A stretch of 31,791 bases of DNA, taken from the UHGV virus genome UHGV-1970909. One strand, written 5' to 3'. Below, piece by piece: positions 11,414-31,600 of the stretch; positions within the stretch are counted from its first letter, which is position 1; the number at the start of each line of letters is the position of its first letter. The translations under genes and the position numbers were made by a program. A model generated the notes under the pieces. The model was not told the DNA's origin. It did no database searches and saw nothing but the letters and a program-made list of their open reading frames with translations. The stretch is from a virus.

Positions 11414-11764
11414 TTAACTCAGTGGAAGGGTGATAGAAAAAGGCTGGCCTGATGCCGAACGCGTGCCGGTCATATCGACGTACATCGCGCCGTCATCCTC
11501 TCCGCGTTCAAAGGTGATGGTCGACAAACTGACGCGCGGTTCCCACTTCTGGATCGCGGAGTAGCACGCGGCCATAATCTGCAGACGCAGCGCCGGGGTC
11601 TGCGGCTGGTCAATCAGTGCAGACAACAGCGAGCCATATTCGCGGCGCATGACCCGCGATCCCACCGGCGTGACCAGAATGTCGCGCACGCTTTGCCTGA
11701 TGTGCTCAACCTCAGAAATACTGAGGCCGGTCTGGCTGTTCATTCCCAGATAACGCACCGTCAT
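11414..11764 (-). CDS. W: Baseplate protein gpW, 116 aa
   Basis: Synteny V-W-J and size as P2 gpW. Confidence 0.9.
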   Translation of the reverse strand: MTVRYLGMNSQTGLSISEVEHIRQSVRDILVTPVGSRVMRREYGSLLSALIDQPQTPALRLQIMAACYSAIQKWEPRVSLSTITFERGEDDGAMYVDMTGTRSASGQPFSITLPLS

Positions 11765-12402
11765 TTGACCCCCTTCGTCCAGTTTCCGCCTGGCTCCACG
11801 CCACCATGATCGTGGTCATCGACCTGCACGCCATTTGAGGTAAATTTCCCGCCGGTGTGCTCGATGTTCCCCGACATCGTCCCGCCTTTTTTCACTTCGA
11901 GCGTGCCGGTTGTCAGCTTGTTGGTACACACCACCTCGGGTGTATCGAGGGTGATGCGGGTGGATGCCTTAACCAGTACCAGCGGCACGGTGGCAGTAAT
12001 GGACTCTGATGCAATGACGTCGGCAGTTTTAATACCGGACACGGTGAGCGCCCCGTTTTCGGGTTCGTACTCAATAACCGCCCCGTCAGGAAACGAGACA
12101 TGCAGGGCATCGGGTGAGGCAGACGGCGCGGGATGGTCATCAGAGAAAATACCAGGCAGCACAAAGGCAGTGTCGAGTTCGCCCCCAATGGCAAGAATGA
12201 GCACCTGCTCGCCAACGGAAGGAGCCCACCACACCCGTGAGCGACCGGCGCGACAGGTCAGCCAGTTAAGCCACGTGGTTTGCATCCCTCCGGTCTGCAC
12301 ACGACAAAGCCCCTCAACGGGTTCAACGTCTGTCACAACGCCGGTGCGGATAAGGTTGCGGATCGCACGAGCGATTTCCTGCAGAGAAGTTAAATTGTTC
12401 AT
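11761..12402 (-). CDS. V: Baseplate spike/hub protein gpV, 213 aa
   Basis: Start placed at MNNLTSLQEIARAI (residue 35 of the six-frame ORF), giving a P2-V-sized product; ATGA overlap with W. Confidence 0.88.
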   Translation of the reverse strand: MNNLTSLQEIARAIRNLIRTGVVTDVEPVEGLCRVQTGGMQTTWLNWLTCRAGRSRVWWAPSVGEQVLILAIGGELDTAFVLPGIFSDDHPAPSASPDALHVSFPDGAVIEYEPENGALTVSGIKTADVIASESITATVPLVLVKASTRITLDTPEVVCTNKLTTGTLEVKKGGTMSGNIEHTGGKFTSNGVQVDDHDHGGVEPGGNWTKGVK

Positions 12403-12789
12403 GGGGAAAGGATGCCGCCGGGGAGGGGCAGCAGCAATCGAGCGGGGTTTTATGAGGGATGAAACAACAAACGGCAACTCAGACTTGTCATTACAGACCA
12501 ACACCTCCTTTGAGGGGCTGATTGAAACCTAGTCGAACATCCAGCGTTGTTCCTTAGCTGCGTGACAATGTTTTTGAACACAGTATTGGCCAAAGCTGAG
12601 CCGAAATTGGCATCCTACGAAAAATTCGATTTCTCTAGCCAGTAGTTCGATTTTAGATTTTGTATTACCTTACTCAATGAGTTTTTGGTCAGATTTTTAA
12701 CACACTCAACGCCAAAAGCGGGCGCTCACGTAAACATATCCATTTTTGCTTGAGACATATTTACTATTACAGTGAGCAGTTTATCTGTT

Positions 12790-12820
12790 TTCCAAAAGAG
12801 GCAGAGGTATATTTCTGCCT
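12790..12820 (-). terminator. Candidate terminator of the AT-rich membrane-protein cargo gene
   Basis: Hairpin AGGCAG (12799-12804) / CTGCCT (12815-12820) with a 10-nt loop, 14 nt past the stop, followed on the minus strand by CTCTTTTGG. Confidence 0.35.
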
Positions 12821-12833
12821 AGCGCATGTTGCC

Positions 12834-13820
12834 TTATGGATTTGACTTACCTGAAGTCTCTTTTTTTATTTCAAATTTCCCACCCTTGAACATGATATTC
12901 GAATCTTTGATTCCATACAAAAGCATTTCATAAGGATGGTTAATTTTTTGTTCTTTTGTAGCGATACTGGAATTCATCAATTGCAACAAAGCCACATGAT
13001 GTTCACTCGCCCCTAACTCTACCATTTTGGTAGCCATGTTGCTTATCTGTTCTCGTTTTAAAAAATCTTCCCGGAGAGAAAGTAACGTTAAACTTCGTGC
13101 GTTACAAAACTTTATCATGTAAACAACAAACGCACCTAACCCAATATAGGAAAACGATAATGCTAAATAAATAGACGGTGTGGTTATTATGTTTTGCCCA
13201 AATATAAGAAAACCCAGCAGGCCAAAAAAATAAAAAACATTCACCAAAATAAACATGTTACTCATCAGAGCCTTTGTACTTCGAGTTGCATCATATTCTT
13301 TCTCCAGATGCTCCAAAAATGATGATATTTTTATTAAATTTAACTTTTCAATTGTTTCCTTCTCTAAAATCTTGAATTGCTCACTCTCTCTAATTAATTT
13401 TTTGGTAGTGTCCTCCACTGTATCATGCAATGATTCAGTGATCGCCTCTTCAATTTTATTTTCAGAAAACACGCTTGTTAAAGCGTAATTGGCTAATTCC
13501 TTTTGTCTTTTCTCGATTAAACTTTCGACATTTTCTCTGTACGCATCAAAATATTTTTGACCACTCTCGTTTAGCAATATTTTACGAATATGAAATTTTA
13601 TTTTCTCATCTGCCATTGGTTGGCTTTCAGTGTTACCATTCTTCTTTGTGTTATTATCTTTAGTTTCCGCATTATACCTGTCCTTGCCTGAATCAAGTAA
13701 GTTCCGTGAAATGAATTTCACCACAGGACCACGCAGAATAGCTATAGCTATTGCCATTGCAAGAATGAATGGTGAAGCATCAATAAATGATCGCGCAAAT
13801 ACGAAAGAGATTTCACTCAT
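12834..13820 (-). CDS. Cargo gene: predicted integral membrane protein with coiled-coil region (about 329 aa), function unknown
   Basis: AT-rich ORF in the gap between V and S (P2 orf30 position). Hydrophobic helices at FILAMAIAIAIL and FILVNVFYFFGLLGFLIFG...IYLALSFSYIGLGAFVVYMI, with a long charged K/E-rich middle. Start chosen at MSEISF (ATG with GGGAA 6 nt upstream); the six-frame ORF begins at an upstream TTG. Confidence 0.7.
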   Translation of the reverse strand: MSEISFVFARSFIDASPFILAMAIAIAILRGPVVKFISRNLLDSGKDRYNAETKDNNTKKNGNTESQPMADEKIKFHIRKILLNESGQKYFDAYRENVESLIEKRQKELANYALTSVFSENKIEEAITESLHDTVEDTTKKLIRESEQFKILEKETIEKLNLIKISSFLEHLEKEYDATRSTKALMSNMFILVNVFYFFGLLGFLIFGQNIITTPSIYLALSFSYIGLGAFVVYMIKFCNARSLTLLSLREDFLKREQISNMATKMVELGASEHHVALLQLMNSSIATKEQKINHPYEMLLYGIKDSNIMFKGGKFEIKKETSGKSNP

Positions 13821-14133
13821 AAACATTTCCCTATCTAAAATCAAAGAGTTTACTTTTACCCATATTTTCTACTGACTGAACCAGTTTGACAAGAGAGATA
13901 AGCATCTTTAATATCGATTTTGCCCATTAGGCATGAAAATAAAAAATACCACATGAAATCAATATCATACAATGACCACGCGTTGACCTCATCCATAACC
14001 AATAAATTATCTGATCATGAAATTCTTGATATGCATTGCAGAATTCGATTTCCACCATTTCGCTTTTAGATGTTCATCAAATATCAACACCCCACTATCA
14101 GTAGTTGACAGATCAACTCGTAGCTAATTCAAA

Positions 14134-14574
14134 TCAGATGAGTAAAAAAAGATCCTCAATTAATTGTATATCGTTCCTGCTAAATCCGAGTAACTGGCGT
14201 TCTGGATATTGCACGTCCTGAGCATGAGGGTTTGGCCGGTCTTTGAGTCCGAACTGATGAATCTGCGCGATGCGTTGCACCTTGCCAGTGAATTCCACCA
14301 CGGCAGTATCATTGCGGCCACTGGCTTTCATGTAGCGACTGGTTCGCAACTTCTGAAACATCGCCCGTTTAATGCGTCCTTTTTTTGCCCTCAGCGGCTG
14401 GCGTTTTCGTGCCTGATACGGCGTGCCATCAGGTGCTTTTTGCTGTTTGATTCGTTGCTGTTGCGATCTGCGCAGTTCCTTCGCAATCTCAGCGGCCAGC
14501 TTGCGCCGACCCACCGGTGATATTGCCGCAATCAGTCCCGCAAGTTTGTCATCAAAAGGTTTAAATTCATTCAT
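14134..14574 (-). CDS. S: Tail completion / virion morphogenesis protein gpS, 146 aa
   Basis: Synteny R-S-(cargo)-V and size as P2 gpS; overlaps R by 8 nt. Confidence 0.82.
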   Translation of the reverse strand: MNEFKPFDDKLAGLIAAISPVGRRKLAAEIAKELRRSQQQRIKQQKAPDGTPYQARKRQPLRAKKGRIKRAMFQKLRTSRYMKASGRNDTAVVEFTGKVQRIAQIHQFGLKDRPNPHAQDVQYPERQLLGFSRNDIQLIEDLFLLI

Positions 14575-22795: not shown

Positions 22796-22927
22796 ACTGA
22801 GCGCCTCAGACGCACCACACACCACCTAACCACCCGGCAGGCATCAGCCCGACCCGTAAAGCGACAGCGCCACCACGACGCGCTCAGGTGCGTAAAAATA
22901 AATGCTGTCACCACGTCTGGCGCGCAG

Positions 22928-22946
22928 TGCTATCCCCGCCTCGCCT
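22928..22946 (-). other. cos: cos site (19-nt cohesive-end sequence, minus strand GGCGAGGCGGGGATAGCAC)
   Basis: One mismatch from the P2 cohesive end as I recall it (GGCGAGGCGGGGAAAGCAC); located just beyond Q as in P2/186. Confidence 0.7.
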
Positions 22947-23194
22947 GCGCGCTTGATGGGGCGGTTTTAATGCAGATGCCAGCTTCGATTTTTCCTTGTC
23001 AATATTGACTTGAGTTACCGAGAATTTAGTCTGAAAAAAATGCAAATTAATGCAACAGAATGCCTTGTTTTCGCAGAAAGCTATCTGAACTCAAAATGGT
23101 ATTTACAACCCCCTTGTATTGATTATCATTATGAAAATGCACGTTTTACTAATCTATCACAAAAAACTCATGCATCAGTTTTGAAGGAGTTAGC

Positions 23195-24460
23195 ATGAAT
23201 ATAATGAAATGTTTTGAATGCGAAACCTGTGGTACACACATTGATTGTAGAATAGGACTTTCAAATCGAGATGTGCAGCCTTTTCAGTTTGCTTGTCCTG
23301 AATGTGAAGAAAAAATTACTTTTAATATTTTGGGTGAAGACTTCAACCTAGAAGGGGCCATTGATCTTGTTGATTTTGAGGCACCATTTACGGGGGGTAA
23401 TCATTTCATAGATTTACACTTGGATTTTCCCGCCTCATTTGAAAAATATGAAATGGGATTTACTCCATTCATGCGAGCTGCTCAGGAAATCGGTCATGAG
23501 AACTATCAGCATCTTAATGAGAGACTGAATGCTCTTAACTACTTATACCCTAAAAAGAGAGAGTTAAGACGCTTAATAACTCAGTATAAACGAGGCGAAG
23601 TAAATACATTTCGAAAAACCTGCAATAAGCTTCTTGGTATACAATTAAAATCTAATAAGAAACAAGATATATTAGCCGCTTTGTATACAGCAACATCCAT
23701 AATGTCTTCACCTTTTACCATACATCAACATAATGAAGAAATAAGCACTAAAATGCCTGATTTATTACGTTCGCTTGATTACACTCACAAAATAAAAACA
23801 AGGGCGTTTTTTGAACAGTTAATTAAAACTGGTTTCTTACGAAATGTACACCATGAATGCCTATCCTTGTACCCAAAAATCGTAGAATTAGACCTACCAT
23901 TAAGGCCAGCCCTTTATTTTGACTACAAGCAATTAAATGAAGGGGATAAAATTTCAGGGCGGGTTTCAACTGCTGACTTTGATAGTTGCAGTAATTTATA
24001 TAAGGATCTATCTGAAGTCTTTTCGCGATTATTAACATTAGTTGCGGGGCTTAATAATCTGCTAAAACGTGGAGATTATGATCTGTTTGATGATTCAGTT
24101 CGTTTAAATAAAAAACAAGAATTAATTAAAGAACTTGCATCTTTAAATAATTTTACCAATATGGATTTAGGTAAAAAAATAGAGTGTATTGATGATTCAT
24201 TTTATTACATCGACAAGAGTGCAATTAATCACAAGTTACGAAATGCAATTGCCCATTATAAATATGAGTACGAAGAATCTACACAAATGATTTTCTATTA
24301 CCCAAATAGAGAAGGAATGAGCAGAGAGAACATGTATGAAATTTCATTTCTTGAATTTCTTAGATATTCTTTGATGCTTTTTCGTGAGGTTCATTCATTG
24401 AATCACATTGTTAAATCATTGTTTTTTTACACTGTGCTTGTTTTAAAGAAGGACATTTAA
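23195..24460 (+). CDS. Cargo gene: N-terminal zinc-ribbon + C-terminal HEPN-like (R-x4-H) domain protein, 421 aa; candidate abortive-infection RNase
   Basis: AT-rich ORF with a strong AAGGAG Shine-Dalgarno; N-terminus CFECETCGTH...ACPECEEK (C-x2-C...C-x2-C); C-terminal motif HKLRNAIAHYKYEY (R349-N-x3-H354, nt 24239-24256); sits between cos and A, where P2 carries tin/old. Confidence 0.75.
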   Translation: MNIMKCFECETCGTHIDCRIGLSNRDVQPFQFACPECEEKITFNILGEDFNLEGAIDLVDFEAPFTGGNHFIDLHLDFPASFEKYEMGFTPFMRAAQEIGHENYQHLNERLNALNYLYPKKRELRRLITQYKRGEVNTFRKTCNKLLGIQLKSNKKQDILAALYTATSIMSSPFTIHQHNEEISTKMPDLLRSLDYTHKIKTRAFFEQLIKTGFLRNVHHECLSLYPKIVELDLPLRPALYFDYKQLNEGDKISGRVSTADFDSCSNLYKDLSEVFSRLLTLVAGLNNLLKRGDYDLFDDSVRLNKKQELIKELASLNNFTNMDLGKKIECIDDSFYYIDKSAINHKLRNAIAHYKYEYEESTQMIFYYPNREGMSRENMYEISFLEFLRYSLMLFREVHSLNHIVKSLFFYTVLVLKKDI

Positions 24461-24471
24461 AGCTAAAGGTA

Positions 24472-24509
24472 AGCTATGTAAATTACGTTTTTAATTACAT
24501 AGCTTTTAT
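24472..24509 (+). terminator. Rho-independent terminator of the HEPN cargo gene
   Basis: About 12-bp stem AGCTATGTAA(A)TT (24472-24484) / AATTACATAGCT (24493-24504) with loop ACGTTTTT, followed by TTTTATCTG; 12 nt after the stop. Confidence 0.6.
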
Positions 24510-24568
24510 CTGTTAATAATCTTTACGAATTTCTCAGATATTTGTTTAAGATCTTATATTATCATAAC

Positions 24569-24751
24569 CTACTCAGTCTTATAAAAAATATCATCTTCGG
24601 TTTCATTATTTTCGCTGTTTGCTAGATCAGCAATGAGAGTGAGCGCAAGCTTTAAATCTGCAGGCTTGCAGTTTGCAATCAGAGATACCTCGGCAATGAA
24701 TTGCACACAAGCCCACTTTTGCTGCGTTCGGCTGAAATGTTCCCCAACCAT
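24569..24751 (-). CDS. Small SOS-regulated ORF (60 aa, acidic C-terminus); candidate Tum-like antirepressor
   Basis: ATG preceded by GGGAGAG; a strong LexA box and a TTGCCA -35 lie directly upstream; position (far end from the immunity region, near cos) matches the 186 tum arrangement, but the protein is shorter than 186 Tum (146 aa). Confidence 0.55.
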   Translation of the reverse strand: MVGEHFSRTQQKWACVQFIAEVSLIANCKPADLKLALTLIADLANSENNETEDDIFYKTE

Positions 24752-24771
24752 GAAATCTCTCCCAATATTTT

Positions 24772-24791
24772 GACTGTATATTTATACAGTA
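24772..24791. promoter_or_regulatory. LexA (SOS) box GACTGTATATTTATACAGTA overlapping the -10 region of the small-ORF promoter
   Basis: CTGT-N8(AT-rich)-ACAG palindrome closely matching the consensus TACTGTATATATATACAGTA; minus strand shows TTGCCA -35 about 17 nt upstream of a TATAAA/TAAATA -10 inside the box. Confidence 0.7.
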
Positions 24792-24865
24792 TCACGTATT
24801 GGCAATTGATGGGAAGAGAAAAAGTGGATCACGTAGGTGTTGTATGTGCATGATATGGATGCGAA

Positions 24866-30595: not shown

Positions 30596-31600
30596 ATGCC
30601 TACCAATCGTACTAGATACTCATTTTTAAGCCCAATGAGTATCAGTGATAGCGTCAGTGTTTTTTTTGCAGCCCTTGATTTTTTTTCAATCCCTGGACAG
30701 GACAAGGTTAGGAAAACTATAGCTATACCTCAAACCAATAATGGTATTCATCCTCTTCCTGCTGGTTCTTTCATGGATTATATTAAGGCGTTAAATATTT
30801 TGGCTGAGCCTGATCGCCACATGCAAAATATACGAAAGCTACTTAACAAAATGGAAGGTGTAGGTTTGTTAGTACCTATGGGGAACTCTGGGAGTGTATT
30901 TTTCCCAACCAATTATTACTTCTTGAAAGAATTAACTGAGAGAGAAAAGAAAGGTCGATTCTGGTTGTCTGAATGCTTGGGGCCTGAGTATGTGTACAAG
31001 TTTTTTGGTAATTTAATCATACATATCGTAGGCATGACATCAGATGGAGATGAACATGGAGGCACTGGAGTTATTATTAATGATAAACTGGTTTTGACAT
31101 GCAAGCATGTAATCGATGAAATGGTTATCAATGATACTCAATTTATTAATGGTAGTCAGATCAAAGTAGTCAACACGCATACACATAATGAAATTGATGT
31201 TGGAATTATTGAGTTCGAACCAAATAGCTTTATTGTAAATGGGAATGTGTGTTTTGATTCTCCGCACTTAAATGATGATATATATGTTTTAGGCTATCCA
31301 CCAATTCCATATTCAAAAGAAGTTGCGCCAATAATGCAGAAAGGTGAGATTACTAACCCTGAAATTACTACATTGGATAATCATACGGTTTTTCTTTTCT
31401 CTGCTATAGCTAGACCTGGTAATAGTGGAGGTCCAATTATTGCTAGGAATGGCAGGATCCTTGGGATAGTCACGAAAGAGCTATCACTTCAAGAAAGCAA
31501 TAACTTCCCGTTCTTTGCGGGGATTCCAACAAATGAAATAGTAACAGCCCTCTCTGATATGGGGTTTGGAGGGATACTTCCTGTCGAAAATTATCAGTAG
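30596..31600 (+). CDS. Cargo gene: two-domain protein with C-terminal trypsin/chymotrypsin-like serine protease (H171, D201, S277 in GNSGGP) and an unrecognised N-terminal domain, 334 aa
   Basis: AT-rich ORF with a perfect AAGGAG Shine-Dalgarno; motifs TCKHVI, EIDVGIIEF and ARPGNSGGPII in H-D-S order; no signal peptide evident; sits between int and the right integrase arm repeats. Confidence 0.75.
   Translation: MPTNRTRYSFLSPMSISDSVSVFFAALDFFSIPGQDKVRKTIAIPQTNNGIHPLPAGSFMDYIKALNILAEPDRHMQNIRKLLNKMEGVGLLVPMGNSGSVFFPTNYYFLKELTEREKKGRFWLSECLGPEYVYKFFGNLIIHIVGMTSDGDEHGGTGVIINDKLVLTCKHVIDEMVINDTQFINGSQIKVVNTHTHNEIDVGIIEFEPNSFIVNGNVCFDSPHLNDDIYVLGYPPIPYSKEVAPIMQKGEITNPEITTLDNHTVFLFSAIARPGNSGGPIIARNGRILGIVTKELSLQESNNFPFFAGIPTNEIVTALSDMGFGGILPVENYQ

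What the first reader, a model, noticed from the sequence alone, without database searches (positions are those of the whole stretch)
12834..13820. AT-rich three-helix membrane protein with a coiled-coil middle inserted between baseplate gene V and tail gene S
The V-S gap (P2 orf30 slot) is expanded to about 1.7 kb and holds one AT-rich gene in a GC-rich operon. The product has one N-terminal and two central hydrophobic helices separated by a long charged K/E-rich segment, and I recognise no family. Membrane proteins in late-operon cargo slots are typical superinfection-exclusion or abortive-infection effectors.
Basis: partly seen in the sequence, partly recalled or inferred. Interest (0 to 1): 0.6.

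Follow-up and report, generated by a model that had tools for sequence, protein, structure and literature searches.

The report
Orphan membrane cargo gene in P2-like prophage
An AT-rich gene sitting between two tail-gene operons of a P2-like prophage encodes a three-helix inner-membrane protein from an unnamed, horizontally mobile family. It occupies slots where related prophages carry proven anti-phage genes, so it is a good but untested candidate for a new single-gene phage-defence protein.

Summary
A 328-aa ORF (12834-13820, minus strand; GC 0.34 against 0.52 for the rest of the window) is the only gene in a 1.63-kb AT-rich island between gpS and gpV. It has hydrophobic helices at about residues 14-31, 189-208 and 217-237, and a 37%-charged helical middle.

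It is a real gene. Two informative pairs give dN/dS of about 0.1, and the C-terminal half gives 0.04. A sigma-70-like promoter travels with it between loci.

It belongs to an unannotated family with 88 clusters at 50% identity. Members keep one architecture and a C-terminal signature, HPYE-x3-K-G-x3-S-N-x3-K-G-G-K. No Pfam, NCBIfam, PHROG or PADLOC family matches, and no solved structure or fold does.

The gene is always solitary. It sits in the S-V slot of P2-like prophages, fused behind the integrase in 186-like prophages, in lambdoid prophages, next to AbiE or OLD-like genes, or beside IS elements.

In sibling E. coli prophages the same S-V slot holds a Tin homologue or a PD-T4-2-like pair.

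No mechanism is shown. My best guess is a lysogen-expressed inner-membrane defence protein that permeabilises the membrane when triggered. It is a new family of a known kind, of moderate interest.

The parts
12505..14133 (.). AT-rich cargo island (GC 0.35) between gpS and the pV control region
   Evidence: Composition profile and GC computation. In 5426 complete E. coli genomes the whole island, flanks included, occurs only together with the gene, in 5 genomes.
12834..13820 (-). CDS of the 328-aa three-helix membrane protein (includes the stop codon)
   Evidence: ORF list and sequence. Identical RefSeq CDS WP_001290067.1. 23 close homologue clusters. dN/dS 0.10-0.12.
13329..13820 (-). Variable N-terminal half (aa 1-164): TM1 (aa ~14-31, nt 13728-13781), a low-confidence linker (aa 51-70 below pLDDT 50) and charged helices
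   Evidence: Alignment A1. dN/dS 0.2 here against 0.04 for the C-terminal half. Hydropathy. AF2 model.
13110..13256 (-). Transmembrane helical hairpin: TM2 aa 189-208, an 8-residue uncharged loop, TM3 aa 217-237
   Evidence: Hydropathy and charge distribution. AF2 helices 147-207 and 215-269 with pLDDT above 90. N194, Y225, F231 and Y234 are conserved across the wide family.
12876..12938 (-). C-terminal family signature HPYE-x3-(K/Y)-G-x3-S-N-x3-K-G-G-K (aa 295-315)
   Evidence: Present in nearly all 70 aligned members.
13864..13892 (-). Sigma-70-like promoter TTGTCA-17 nt-GAAAAT that travels with the gene
   Evidence: Promoter scan. The -35 hexamer and the -10 A2/T6 positions are conserved in window, L009, L002 (a non-phage locus), L003 and L010 (alignment A3).
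13828..13832 (-). Shine-Dalgarno AGGGA, 7 nt upstream of the ATG
   Evidence: Read directly from the sequence.
12794..12820 (-). Terminator-like hairpin (7-bp stem AGGCAGA/UCUGCCU followed by CUUUU), 14 nt after the stop codon
   Evidence: RNA fold -16.1 kcal/mol, z = -2.8. It missed the simple scan's T-run threshold.
12486..12503 (.). TGT-N12-ACA dyad, the likely Ogr-type activator site of the pV late promoter; marks the V-side edge of the island
   Evidence: Pattern search. The equivalent activator binding site is annotated upstream of V in P2 AF063097. That it functions here is inferred.
14134..14574 (-). gpS (tail completion), upstream flank
   Evidence: Pfam Phage_tail_S 1.5e-37.
11761..12402 (-). 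gpV (baseplate spike), downstream flank
   Evidence: Pfam Phage_base_V plus Phage_spike. RefSeq coordinates.

Best explanation
The gene is a self-contained accessory cassette carried by temperate phages for the benefit of the lysogen. It makes an inner-membrane protein with a short periplasmic N-terminus, TM1, a roughly 155-residue cytoplasmic helical region, a TM hairpin and a 90-residue cytoplasmic C-terminal module.

I propose that it is made in the lysogen, from its own promoter here and from the cI-int transcript in 186-like prophages. It would sit inert in the membrane, probably as an oligomer. An infecting phage would trigger the conserved hairpin and C-terminal module to permeabilise or depolarise the inner membrane, aborting the infection. 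The fast-evolving N-terminal half would set trigger specificity or hold the effector in check.

Shown: the gene is real and under selection; the predicted membrane architecture and topology; the gene is solitary and mobile; it carries its own promoter-like element or is coupled to the integrase gene; it occupies defence hotspots.

Inferred: expression in the lysogen; oligomerisation; anti-phage activity; membrane permeabilisation as the effect.
For: 1. Location.
- The slot lies between late operons, as P2 orf30 does.
- Sibling E. coli prophages carry in it a Tin homologue (PADLOC 2.1e-88), an NsnA/PD-T4-2_A-like gene (6.6e-80 / 9.5e-43) with a HEPN partner, or other unrelated orphans.
- PD-T4-2 is an experimentally validated defence system (PMC9519451).
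- Published surveys list hotspots within the P2 tail genes and between int and att (PMC13586616).

2. Close homologues (58-67% identity).
- They sit directly behind the integrase of 186-like prophages: a 4-nt ATGA overlap in L018 and a 2-nt gap in L020. That places them in the repressor-integrase transcription unit.

3. Other contexts.
- A lambdoid prophage next to xis-int and a DndB-like gene.
- A lambdoid prophage region holding a TIR_2 gene.
- Next to AbiEi/AbiEii near smpB.
- Next to an OLD-like TOPRIM gene.
- Next to IS110 or IS91.
- No partner gene recurs.

4. Retention. The gene stays intact in an Enterobacter ludwigii P2 remnant in which V and J are truncated.

5. Selection. dN/dS is 0.117 (window-L009) and 0.103 (window-L002). 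In the window-L009 pair the C-terminal half gives 0.036 and the N-terminal half 0.205.

6. Promoter. The promoter-like element is conserved across phage and non-phage loci.

7. Composition. The gene is 0.11-0.25 lower in GC than its flanks in 16 of 20 loci. Members of the marine branch above 90% identity are found in Vibrio, Aeromonas and Pseudoalteromonas.

8. Architecture.
- The N-terminal TM, helical spacer, TM hairpin and C-terminal module are conserved in nearly all of 70 diverse members.
- Positive charges flank the cytoplasmic sides and the inter-TM loop is uncharged.
- The AF2 model has pLDDT above 90 over residues 130-290.
- One member carries an N-terminal MepK-like periplasmic peptidase, which fits an N-out topology.
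Against: - There is no functional data of any kind.
- No PADLOC model matches the window protein. Among 70 members the only hits are weak (LeoBC in 5 members, best 7.6e-5; 2TM effector models in 1-2 members) and probably reflect composition.
- No SLATT, SieB, Imm or holin Pfam model matches.
- The TM hairpin is very hydrophobic, with only N194 polar within the membrane, so nothing marks an aqueous pore.
- Several distant members lie among ordinary chromosomal genes.
- Guilt by location is weak evidence. P2 hotspots also carry non-defence cargo (PMC9122126), and P2 orf30 in this same slot has no known function.
- AT-rich foreign genes in enterobacteria are often silenced by H-NS (general knowledge), so a promoter match does not prove expression.
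- The family is absent from 50,697 isolated phage genomes and 72,556 plasmids.
Confidence: 0.35

Rival explanations
1. Superinfection exclusion by blocking genome entry. The protein would sit in the inner membrane and interfere with the ejection or tape-measure machinery, or with the inner-membrane entry route of incoming phages. Cells would survive, as with P22 SieA or T4 Imm.
For: The context evidence is the same as for the main explanation. Constitutive expression of a solitary, apparently non-toxic membrane protein with no antitoxin partner fits a passive blocker well. SieA is an inner-membrane protein that is sufficient for exclusion (PMC10883804 abstract). SNIPE shows that membrane-resident single proteins can act at the injection site (PMC13190303).
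Against: Almost the whole protein is predicted to be cytoplasmic. The periplasmic parts are only about 13 N-terminal residues and an 8-residue loop. The most conserved part is the cytoplasmic C-terminus. There is no sequence or fold similarity to any Sie or Imm family.
Confidence: 0.2
2. Lysogenic-conversion or host-fitness function unrelated to phages. Examples would be envelope or membrane-stress tolerance, or resistance to bacteriocins or tailocins.
For: Distant members lie in ordinary chromosomal neighbourhoods (RsgA/TruA, CheW-type genes, DUF2130/Fic). One member is fused to a peptidoglycan endopeptidase, which hints at an envelope role. P2 hotspots also hold non-defence cargo (PMC9122126).
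Against: Ten of about 17 distinct contexts are prophage cargo slots. Three more are adjacent to defence-type genes. The distribution is sparse and patchy with recent cross-genus transfer, which is typical of conflict genes.
Confidence: 0.2
3. Phage-cycle accessory, such as a lysis-timing regulator, holin-like protein or morphogenesis helper, transcribed with the late genes.
For: The gene has the same orientation as the late operons. No terminator is detectable between S and the gene, so late read-through is possible. The lysis cassette is close by.
Against: Homologues sit in the lysogenic cI-int unit and in non-phage loci. The slot is empty of this family in nearly all related prophages: 5 of 52 E. 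coli genomes with related S or V genes carry it. P2 orf30 in the same slot is annotated as nonessential. No PHROG or Pfam lysis or structural family matches.
Confidence: 0.05
4. Selfish addiction module: a membrane toxin controlled by an unrecognised antisense RNA or small peptide.
For: It is a membrane-hairpin protein on mobile DNA. A divergent promoter-like site (TTGACA-17-TAATAT, 13886-13914, plus strand) overlaps its -35 region.
Against: The small upstream ORFs are not conserved in L009. The flanks are not conserved between loci. No Rfam match. At 328 aa with a large conserved soluble part, it is unlike type I toxins.
Confidence: 0.05

Closest known systems
Cargo of the P2 S-V ('orf30') slot and other P2-like prophage hotspots (P2 orf30; Tin; PD-T4-2-like pairs)
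   Same: Same position: between the O-operon end and the pV activator site. It is AT-rich, non-essential-type cargo that differs between otherwise related prophages.
   Different: No sequence similarity to Orf30, Tin, Old or any PADLOC model. It is co-oriented with the late genes, whereas orf30 and the three other single-gene occupants examined (Tin homologue, 309-aa and 543-aa orphans) are on the opposite strand; the PD-T4-2-like pair is co-oriented like this gene. The slot itself is not singled out in the hotspot papers I read, which speak only of 'within the tail genes' or 'downstream of GpL'.
SLATT-type two-TM effector domains of conflict systems (Burroughs et al. 2015, cited from memory)
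   Same: A TM helical hairpin whose two helices continue into long cytoplasmic helices. It is found on mobile or defence-associated DNA. The proposed role is triggered membrane disruption.
   Different: None of 70 members hits a SLATT or DUF4231 Pfam model. The only structural echo is a non-significant BFVD hit at E = 3.9. There is no associated nucleotide-signalling or sensor gene. This family has an extra N-terminal TM and a unique HPYE...KGGK C-terminal module.
Inner-membrane superinfection-exclusion proteins (P22 SieA, T4 Imm, lambda/P22 SieB)
   Same: Solitary, prophage-expressed small membrane proteins that protect the lysogen (PMC10883804).
   Different: No sequence or fold similarity. 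This protein is larger and mostly cytoplasmic.
SNIPE membrane-bound nuclease (PMC13190303)
   Same: A single-protein defence constitutively anchored in the inner membrane.
   Different: SNIPE carries a nuclease domain. No nuclease or other enzymatic domain is detectable here.
Eleos LeoBC (dynamin-like membrane protein)
   Same: Helical regions plus a membrane hairpin. Five of 70 members gave weak PADLOC LeoBC hits (best 7.6e-5).
   Different: The window protein gives no hit. No GTPase domain and no LeoA partner are present. The hits are probably compositional.

Membership tests
P2 Orf30 (the gene in this slot in phage P2) | Sequence homology to P2 Orf30 | tested here: not met
   tblastn of the protein against 50,697 phage records, which include P2 AF063097, gave no match at E <= 0.01.
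Known P2 exclusion genes (tin, old, fun) and PADLOC defence families | Match to the family HMM | tested here: not met
   PADLOC gave 0 families for the window protein at E <= 10. Among 70 relatives there were only weak scattered hits.
SLATT / DUF4231 2TM effectors | Match to Pfam SLATT_1-6, SLATT_fungal or DUF4231 | tested here: not met
   No such hit for the window protein at E <= 1, nor for any of 70 members at E <= 0.01.
SLATT / DUF4231 2TM effectors | TM hairpin flanked by long helices | tested here: met
   AF2 helices 147-207 and 215-269 span the two TM segments. Hydropathy agrees.
SLATT / DUF4231 2TM effectors | Fusion to, or operon with, a sensor or nucleotide-signalling partner (SMODS, SLOG, TIR and similar) | tested here: not met
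   No neighbour recurs across about 17 distinct contexts.
Sie/Imm superinfection-exclusion families (SieB, Imm and others in Pfam) | Match to the family HMM | tested here: not met
   Pfam scans.
Holins, spanins and virion structural proteins | Match to a Pfam or PHROG lysis or structural family | tested here: not met
   PHROGs gave only phrog_10554 (unknown function, E = 0.019) for the window protein. Among 70 members only the MepK-like fusion domain of P0077 hits an endolysin PHROG.
Prophage defence-hotspot cargo (operational class) | Lies between conserved core genes at a position whose content varies among related prophages | tested here: met
   S-V slot contents differ among E. coli prophages with related S/V genes.
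Prophage defence-hotspot cargo (operational class) | Other occupants of the same slot are recognised defence genes | tested here: met
   Tin 2.1e-88; NsnA 6.6e-80 / PD-T4-2_A 9.5e-43, with a HEPN neighbour.
Prophage defence-hotspot cargo (operational class) | Confers resistance to phage infection | not testable with these tools
   Needs cloning and a phage challenge.
Toxin-antitoxin or two-gene Abi module | Conserved adjacent partner gene or RNA | tested here: not met
   DNA similarity between loci stops at the CDS and promoter. Upstream small ORFs are not conserved. No Rfam hit.

The most novel reading that the evidence does not exclude
This is the founding member of a new, widespread single-protein membrane immunity family. 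Members occur in Enterobacterales, Vibrionales, Aeromonas, Burkholderiales, Rhodospirillales, Desulfobacterota and Campylobacterota. Its invariant cytoplasmic HPYE...KGGK module and TM hairpin would form an effector unlike any described one. Its fast-evolving N-terminal half would be the phage sensor.
Probability: 0.4. Interest if true: 0.6.

Novelty: new variant of a known kind. Interest (0 to 1): 0.5.

Why it matters
If the protein does protect against phages, it would add a compact 1-kb, one-gene, promoter-included defence module with no similarity to catalogued systems.

It would also mark the P2 S-V ('orf30') gap, and its exchange with the int-att slot of 186-like phages, as a productive place to mine.

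The split between an invariant C-terminal half and a variable N-terminal half gives a ready hypothesis for separating effector from sensor.

If it is not a defence gene, it is still an unannotated family of membrane proteins that moves between distant bacteria.

Tried and rejected
- Family searches. Pfam, PHROGs, PADLOC and NCBIfam scans of the window protein and of 70 relatives found no family. A PDB sequence profile search found nothing below E = 0.02.
- First AF2 run. With only the close family as alignment the model was poor (pLDDT 60) and was discarded for the 70-sequence run.
- Collection scans. The genome-contig scan with the close-family alignment confirmed nothing. The wide alignment was too divergent for that tool. 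A hand-made degenerate DNA pattern of the C-terminal signature then found 7 loci.
- Profile rerun. The word-indexed search with the profile returned only the close family plus one other protein (P0108).
- Paralogue check. The 334-aa ORF after int in this window (30596-31600) is unrelated.
- Hidden partner. I looked for small conserved ORFs, RNA families and conserved flanks and found none.
- Integron idea. I looked for attC-like repeats in the Thaumasiovibrio locus and found none.
- Literature. No paper holds the RefSeq accession. None of the hotspot papers read describes this family.
- Isolated phages and plasmids. No homologue was found, and megablast found no close relative of the S-V region among isolated phages.

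Full report
**What is in the sequence**

The window is a P2/186-type prophage. It matches an IMG/VR viral contig at 100% protein identity (99.9% at the DNA level over the S-V region). Over the S-V region it is 99.9% identical to prophages in 5 of 5426 complete E. coli genomes.

On the minus strand, gpS (14134-14574; Pfam Phage_tail_S 1.5e-37) and gpV (11761-12402; Phage_base_V plus Phage_spike) are separated by 1731 bp. From 12505 to 14133 the GC content falls to 0.32-0.37, against 0.52 for the rest of the window.

The only substantial ORF in the gap is 12834-13820 (minus strand, 328 aa), preceded by AGGGA 7 nt before the ATG. RefSeq calls the identical CDS a hypothetical protein. An open frame this long at this composition has a chance probability of about 3e-11.

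Hydropathy peaks lie at about residues 11-30, 189-208 and 217-237. Residues 71-188 are 37% charged.

First, the island is not inside an operon. A TGT-N12-ACA dyad sits at 12486-12503, at the GC-rich edge of the island and 84-101 bp before the V start codon.

In P2 itself the annotated order is gpS, the O-operon terminator, orf30 (opposite strand, 'nonessential'), the pV activator binding site, then V. The cargo therefore lies between two late transcription units.

Second, AlphaFold2 predicts the charged middle as helices 70-83, 87-117, 120-145 and 147-207. It does not predict one continuous helix. That fits a helical bundle packed on the cytoplasmic extensions of the TM hairpin. I could not inspect the coordinates, so this stays open.

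**It is a real gene and a single-gene unit**

A word-indexed search of 5.8 billion proteins found 23 clusters at 58-99% identity, all 314-333 aa long. In codon alignments most pairs are saturated at synonymous sites. Two pairs are informative:

| Pair | Whole gene | N-terminal half | C-terminal half |
|---|---|---|---|
| window-L009 | 0.117 | 0.205 | 0.036 |
| window-L002 | 0.103 | 0.155 | 0.039 |

All values are dN/dS.

DNA similarity between loci stops at the coding sequence. The exception is a promoter-like element, TTGTCA-17-GAAAAT (13892-13864). Its -35 hexamer and its -10 A2/T6 positions are conserved in two other S-V-slot lineages and in a non-phage Pectobacterium locus.

The small ORFs upstream in the window are broken in the 86%-identical L009 island. 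No Rfam family matches. A hairpin followed by CUUUU lies 14 nt after the stop codon. In E. coli the island's non-coding flanks occur only together with the gene.

**The family is wider than the close homologues suggest**

A profile search of 1.84 billion cluster representatives found 88 proteins, 74 of them at E <= 1e-10. Nearly all are 290-360 aa.

In a 70-member alignment the architecture recurs almost everywhere: an N-terminal TM, about 150 helical residues, a TM hairpin and about 90 C-terminal residues.

F231, R242, E251, E290, H295 and P296 are invariant. F190, Y225, Y234, N285, Y297, E298, S307, G313 and G314 are nearly so. The end of the protein carries the signature HPYE-x3-K-G-x3-S-N-x3-K-G-G-K.

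Named hosts include:
- E. coli, Enterobacter, Pectobacterium, Dickeya and Serratia;
- Vibrio cholerae, V. parahaemolyticus and V. vulnificus, Aeromonas, Pseudoalteromonas, Marinomonas and Thalassolituus;
- Duganella, Rugamonas and Janthinobacterium;
- a Rhodospirillales MAG, Desulfotalea and Arcobacter.

Members of the marine branch above 90% identity occur in different genera and orders, which indicates recent transfer. The gene is 0.11-0.25 lower in GC than its flanks in 16 of 20 loci.

Every source names it 'hypothetical', apart from one evident misnomer.

**No known family or fold**

- Pfam, PHROGs, PADLOC and NCBIfam give nothing for the window protein.
- Across 70 members there are only scattered weak hits. 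One member has a MepK-like peptidase fused at its N-terminus.
- There is no homologue among isolated phage genomes or plasmids.

**Topology**

Lys and Arg cluster after TM1 (five within 20 residues), before TM2 (three), and after TM3 (five). The 8-residue inter-TM loop has none.

By the positive-inside rule the N-terminus and the loop face the periplasm. The helical region and the conserved C-terminus face the cytoplasm. The one fusion protein, with a periplasmic-type peptidoglycan endopeptidase ahead of TM1, agrees with this. This is a prediction, not a measurement.

**Where the family sits**

1. The S-V slot of P2-like prophages in E. coli, Enterobacter and metagenomes.
2. The same slot in an Enterobacter ludwigii remnant. 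Only lysC-R-S, this gene and truncated V and J survive there, and the gene is intact.
3. Directly behind the integrase of 186-like prophages, downstream of cI. There is an ATGA overlap in L018, a 2-nt gap in L020 and 115-127 bp gaps in L011 and L012. From memory of phage 186 biology, cI and int form the lysogenic transcript, so these copies should be expressed in lysogens.
4. Two lambdoid prophage regions. One is next to xis-int and a DndB-like gene. The other is in a region holding a TIR_2 gene.
5. Next to AbiEi/AbiEii near smpB in Dickeya, and next to an OLD-like TOPRIM gene in Thaumasiovibrio.
6. Beside IS110 or IS91 elements, a group II intron RT and a DUF4365 gene.
7. Ordinary-looking chromosomal spots.

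No neighbour recurs across these contexts.

**The slot itself is a defence slot**

Among E. coli prophages with related S/V genes, the gap holds:
- a Tin homologue (PADLOC 2.1e-88);
- an NsnA/PD-T4-2_A-like gene (6.6e-80 / 9.5e-43) with a HEPN-domain neighbour;
- unrelated orphans of 309 and 543 aa.

PD-T4-2 is experimentally validated, including by deletion in its native strain (PMC9519451). Surveys of P2-like prophages describe the gpA-gpQ and Z/fun hotspots. [quoted passage not shown]

None of them describes this family, and no paper holds its accession.

**Interpretation**

The evidence fits a horizontally mobile, lysogen-expressed accessory gene that is under selection for the host's or the prophage's benefit. 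Its preferred homes are defence hotspots.

The combination below is what one expects of a self-contained sensor-effector:
- a solitary gene with no antitoxin;
- an invariant TM hairpin and cytoplasmic C-terminal module;
- a faster-evolving N-terminal half.

My best guess (0.35) is triggered permeabilisation of the inner membrane, that is, abortive infection. A block of genome entry is the main rival (0.2). It fits the apparent harmlessness of constitutive expression, but fits poorly with a protein that is almost entirely cytoplasmic. A non-defence conversion function (0.2) cannot be excluded. A lysis or virion role (0.05) is unlikely because the family occurs in lysogenic-operon and non-phage contexts. 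An addiction-toxin role (0.05) is unlikely because no partner was found.

None of the mechanistic steps is shown.

**Verdict**

This is an unannotated family, so it is more than a new homologue of a known system. The kind of thing it appears to be, prophage hotspot cargo encoding a membrane protein, is familiar. Interest is moderate (0.5). It is a clean, well-delimited candidate with specific residues and domain swaps to test.

Noticed in passing
window 23195-24460 (+): A second AT-rich island (GC 0.29-0.37) between the portal gene and the replication gene gpA, the classic P2 old/tin hotspot. It holds a 421-aa ORF with no PADLOC or NCBIfam hit. I did not run Pfam on it.
   Followed up: partly
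window 30596-31600 (+): A third AT-rich cargo ORF (334 aa, GC about 0.37) directly after the integrase, in the slot where homologues of the studied family sit in other prophages. It is unrelated to that family (BLASTP E = 8.8). By eye it carries a serine-protease-like GNSGGP motif.
   Followed up: partly
L001 26449-29120 (NZ_AP021944.1), compared with window 22800-24800: A sibling prophage with a 99.9% identical S-V island carries different cargo at the gpQ-gpA hotspot: an AAA_15/AAA_21/DUF3696 ATPase plus a 370-aa orphan. The hotspots of one prophage lineage therefore swap independently.
   Followed up: partly
L023 3906-5520 (NZ_CP028578.2); similar V-gene hits in about 30 E. coli genomes: Here the S-V slot holds a DUF262 gene (PADLOC NsnA / PD-T4-2_A) with a HEPN-domain gene. 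The slot is not singled out as a hotspot in the papers I read.
   Followed up: partly
L021 1268-1981 (NZ_OZ282453.1): A Tin homologue (PADLOC 2.1e-88) lies in the S-V slot rather than at the gpA-gpQ locus where P2 carries tin.
   Followed up: no
window 13886-13914 (+): A promoter-like site, TTGACA-17-TAATAT (10 of 12), points away from the gene and overlaps its -35 hexamer. It may be chance.
   Followed up: no
P0077 (550 aa, 2.1-kb metagenome contig): One family member has an N-terminal MepK-like L,D-endopeptidase domain (NCBIfam 2.9e-44; Pfam Peptidase_M15_2 4e-49) fused ahead of TM1. This fits an N-out topology and hints at a link to the envelope.
   Followed up: partly
L004-L007 (Enterobacter ludwigii): A 3.5-kb P2 remnant (lysC-R-S, the cargo gene, truncated V and J) is embedded among host genes and recurs in several assemblies. 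In L005 it lies next to the tail end of another P2-like prophage.
   Followed up: partly
window 13821-14133: No terminator-like site is detectable between gpS and the cargo gene, whereas P2 has an annotated O-operon terminator there. Late read-through into the cargo gene is therefore possible.
   Followed up: no
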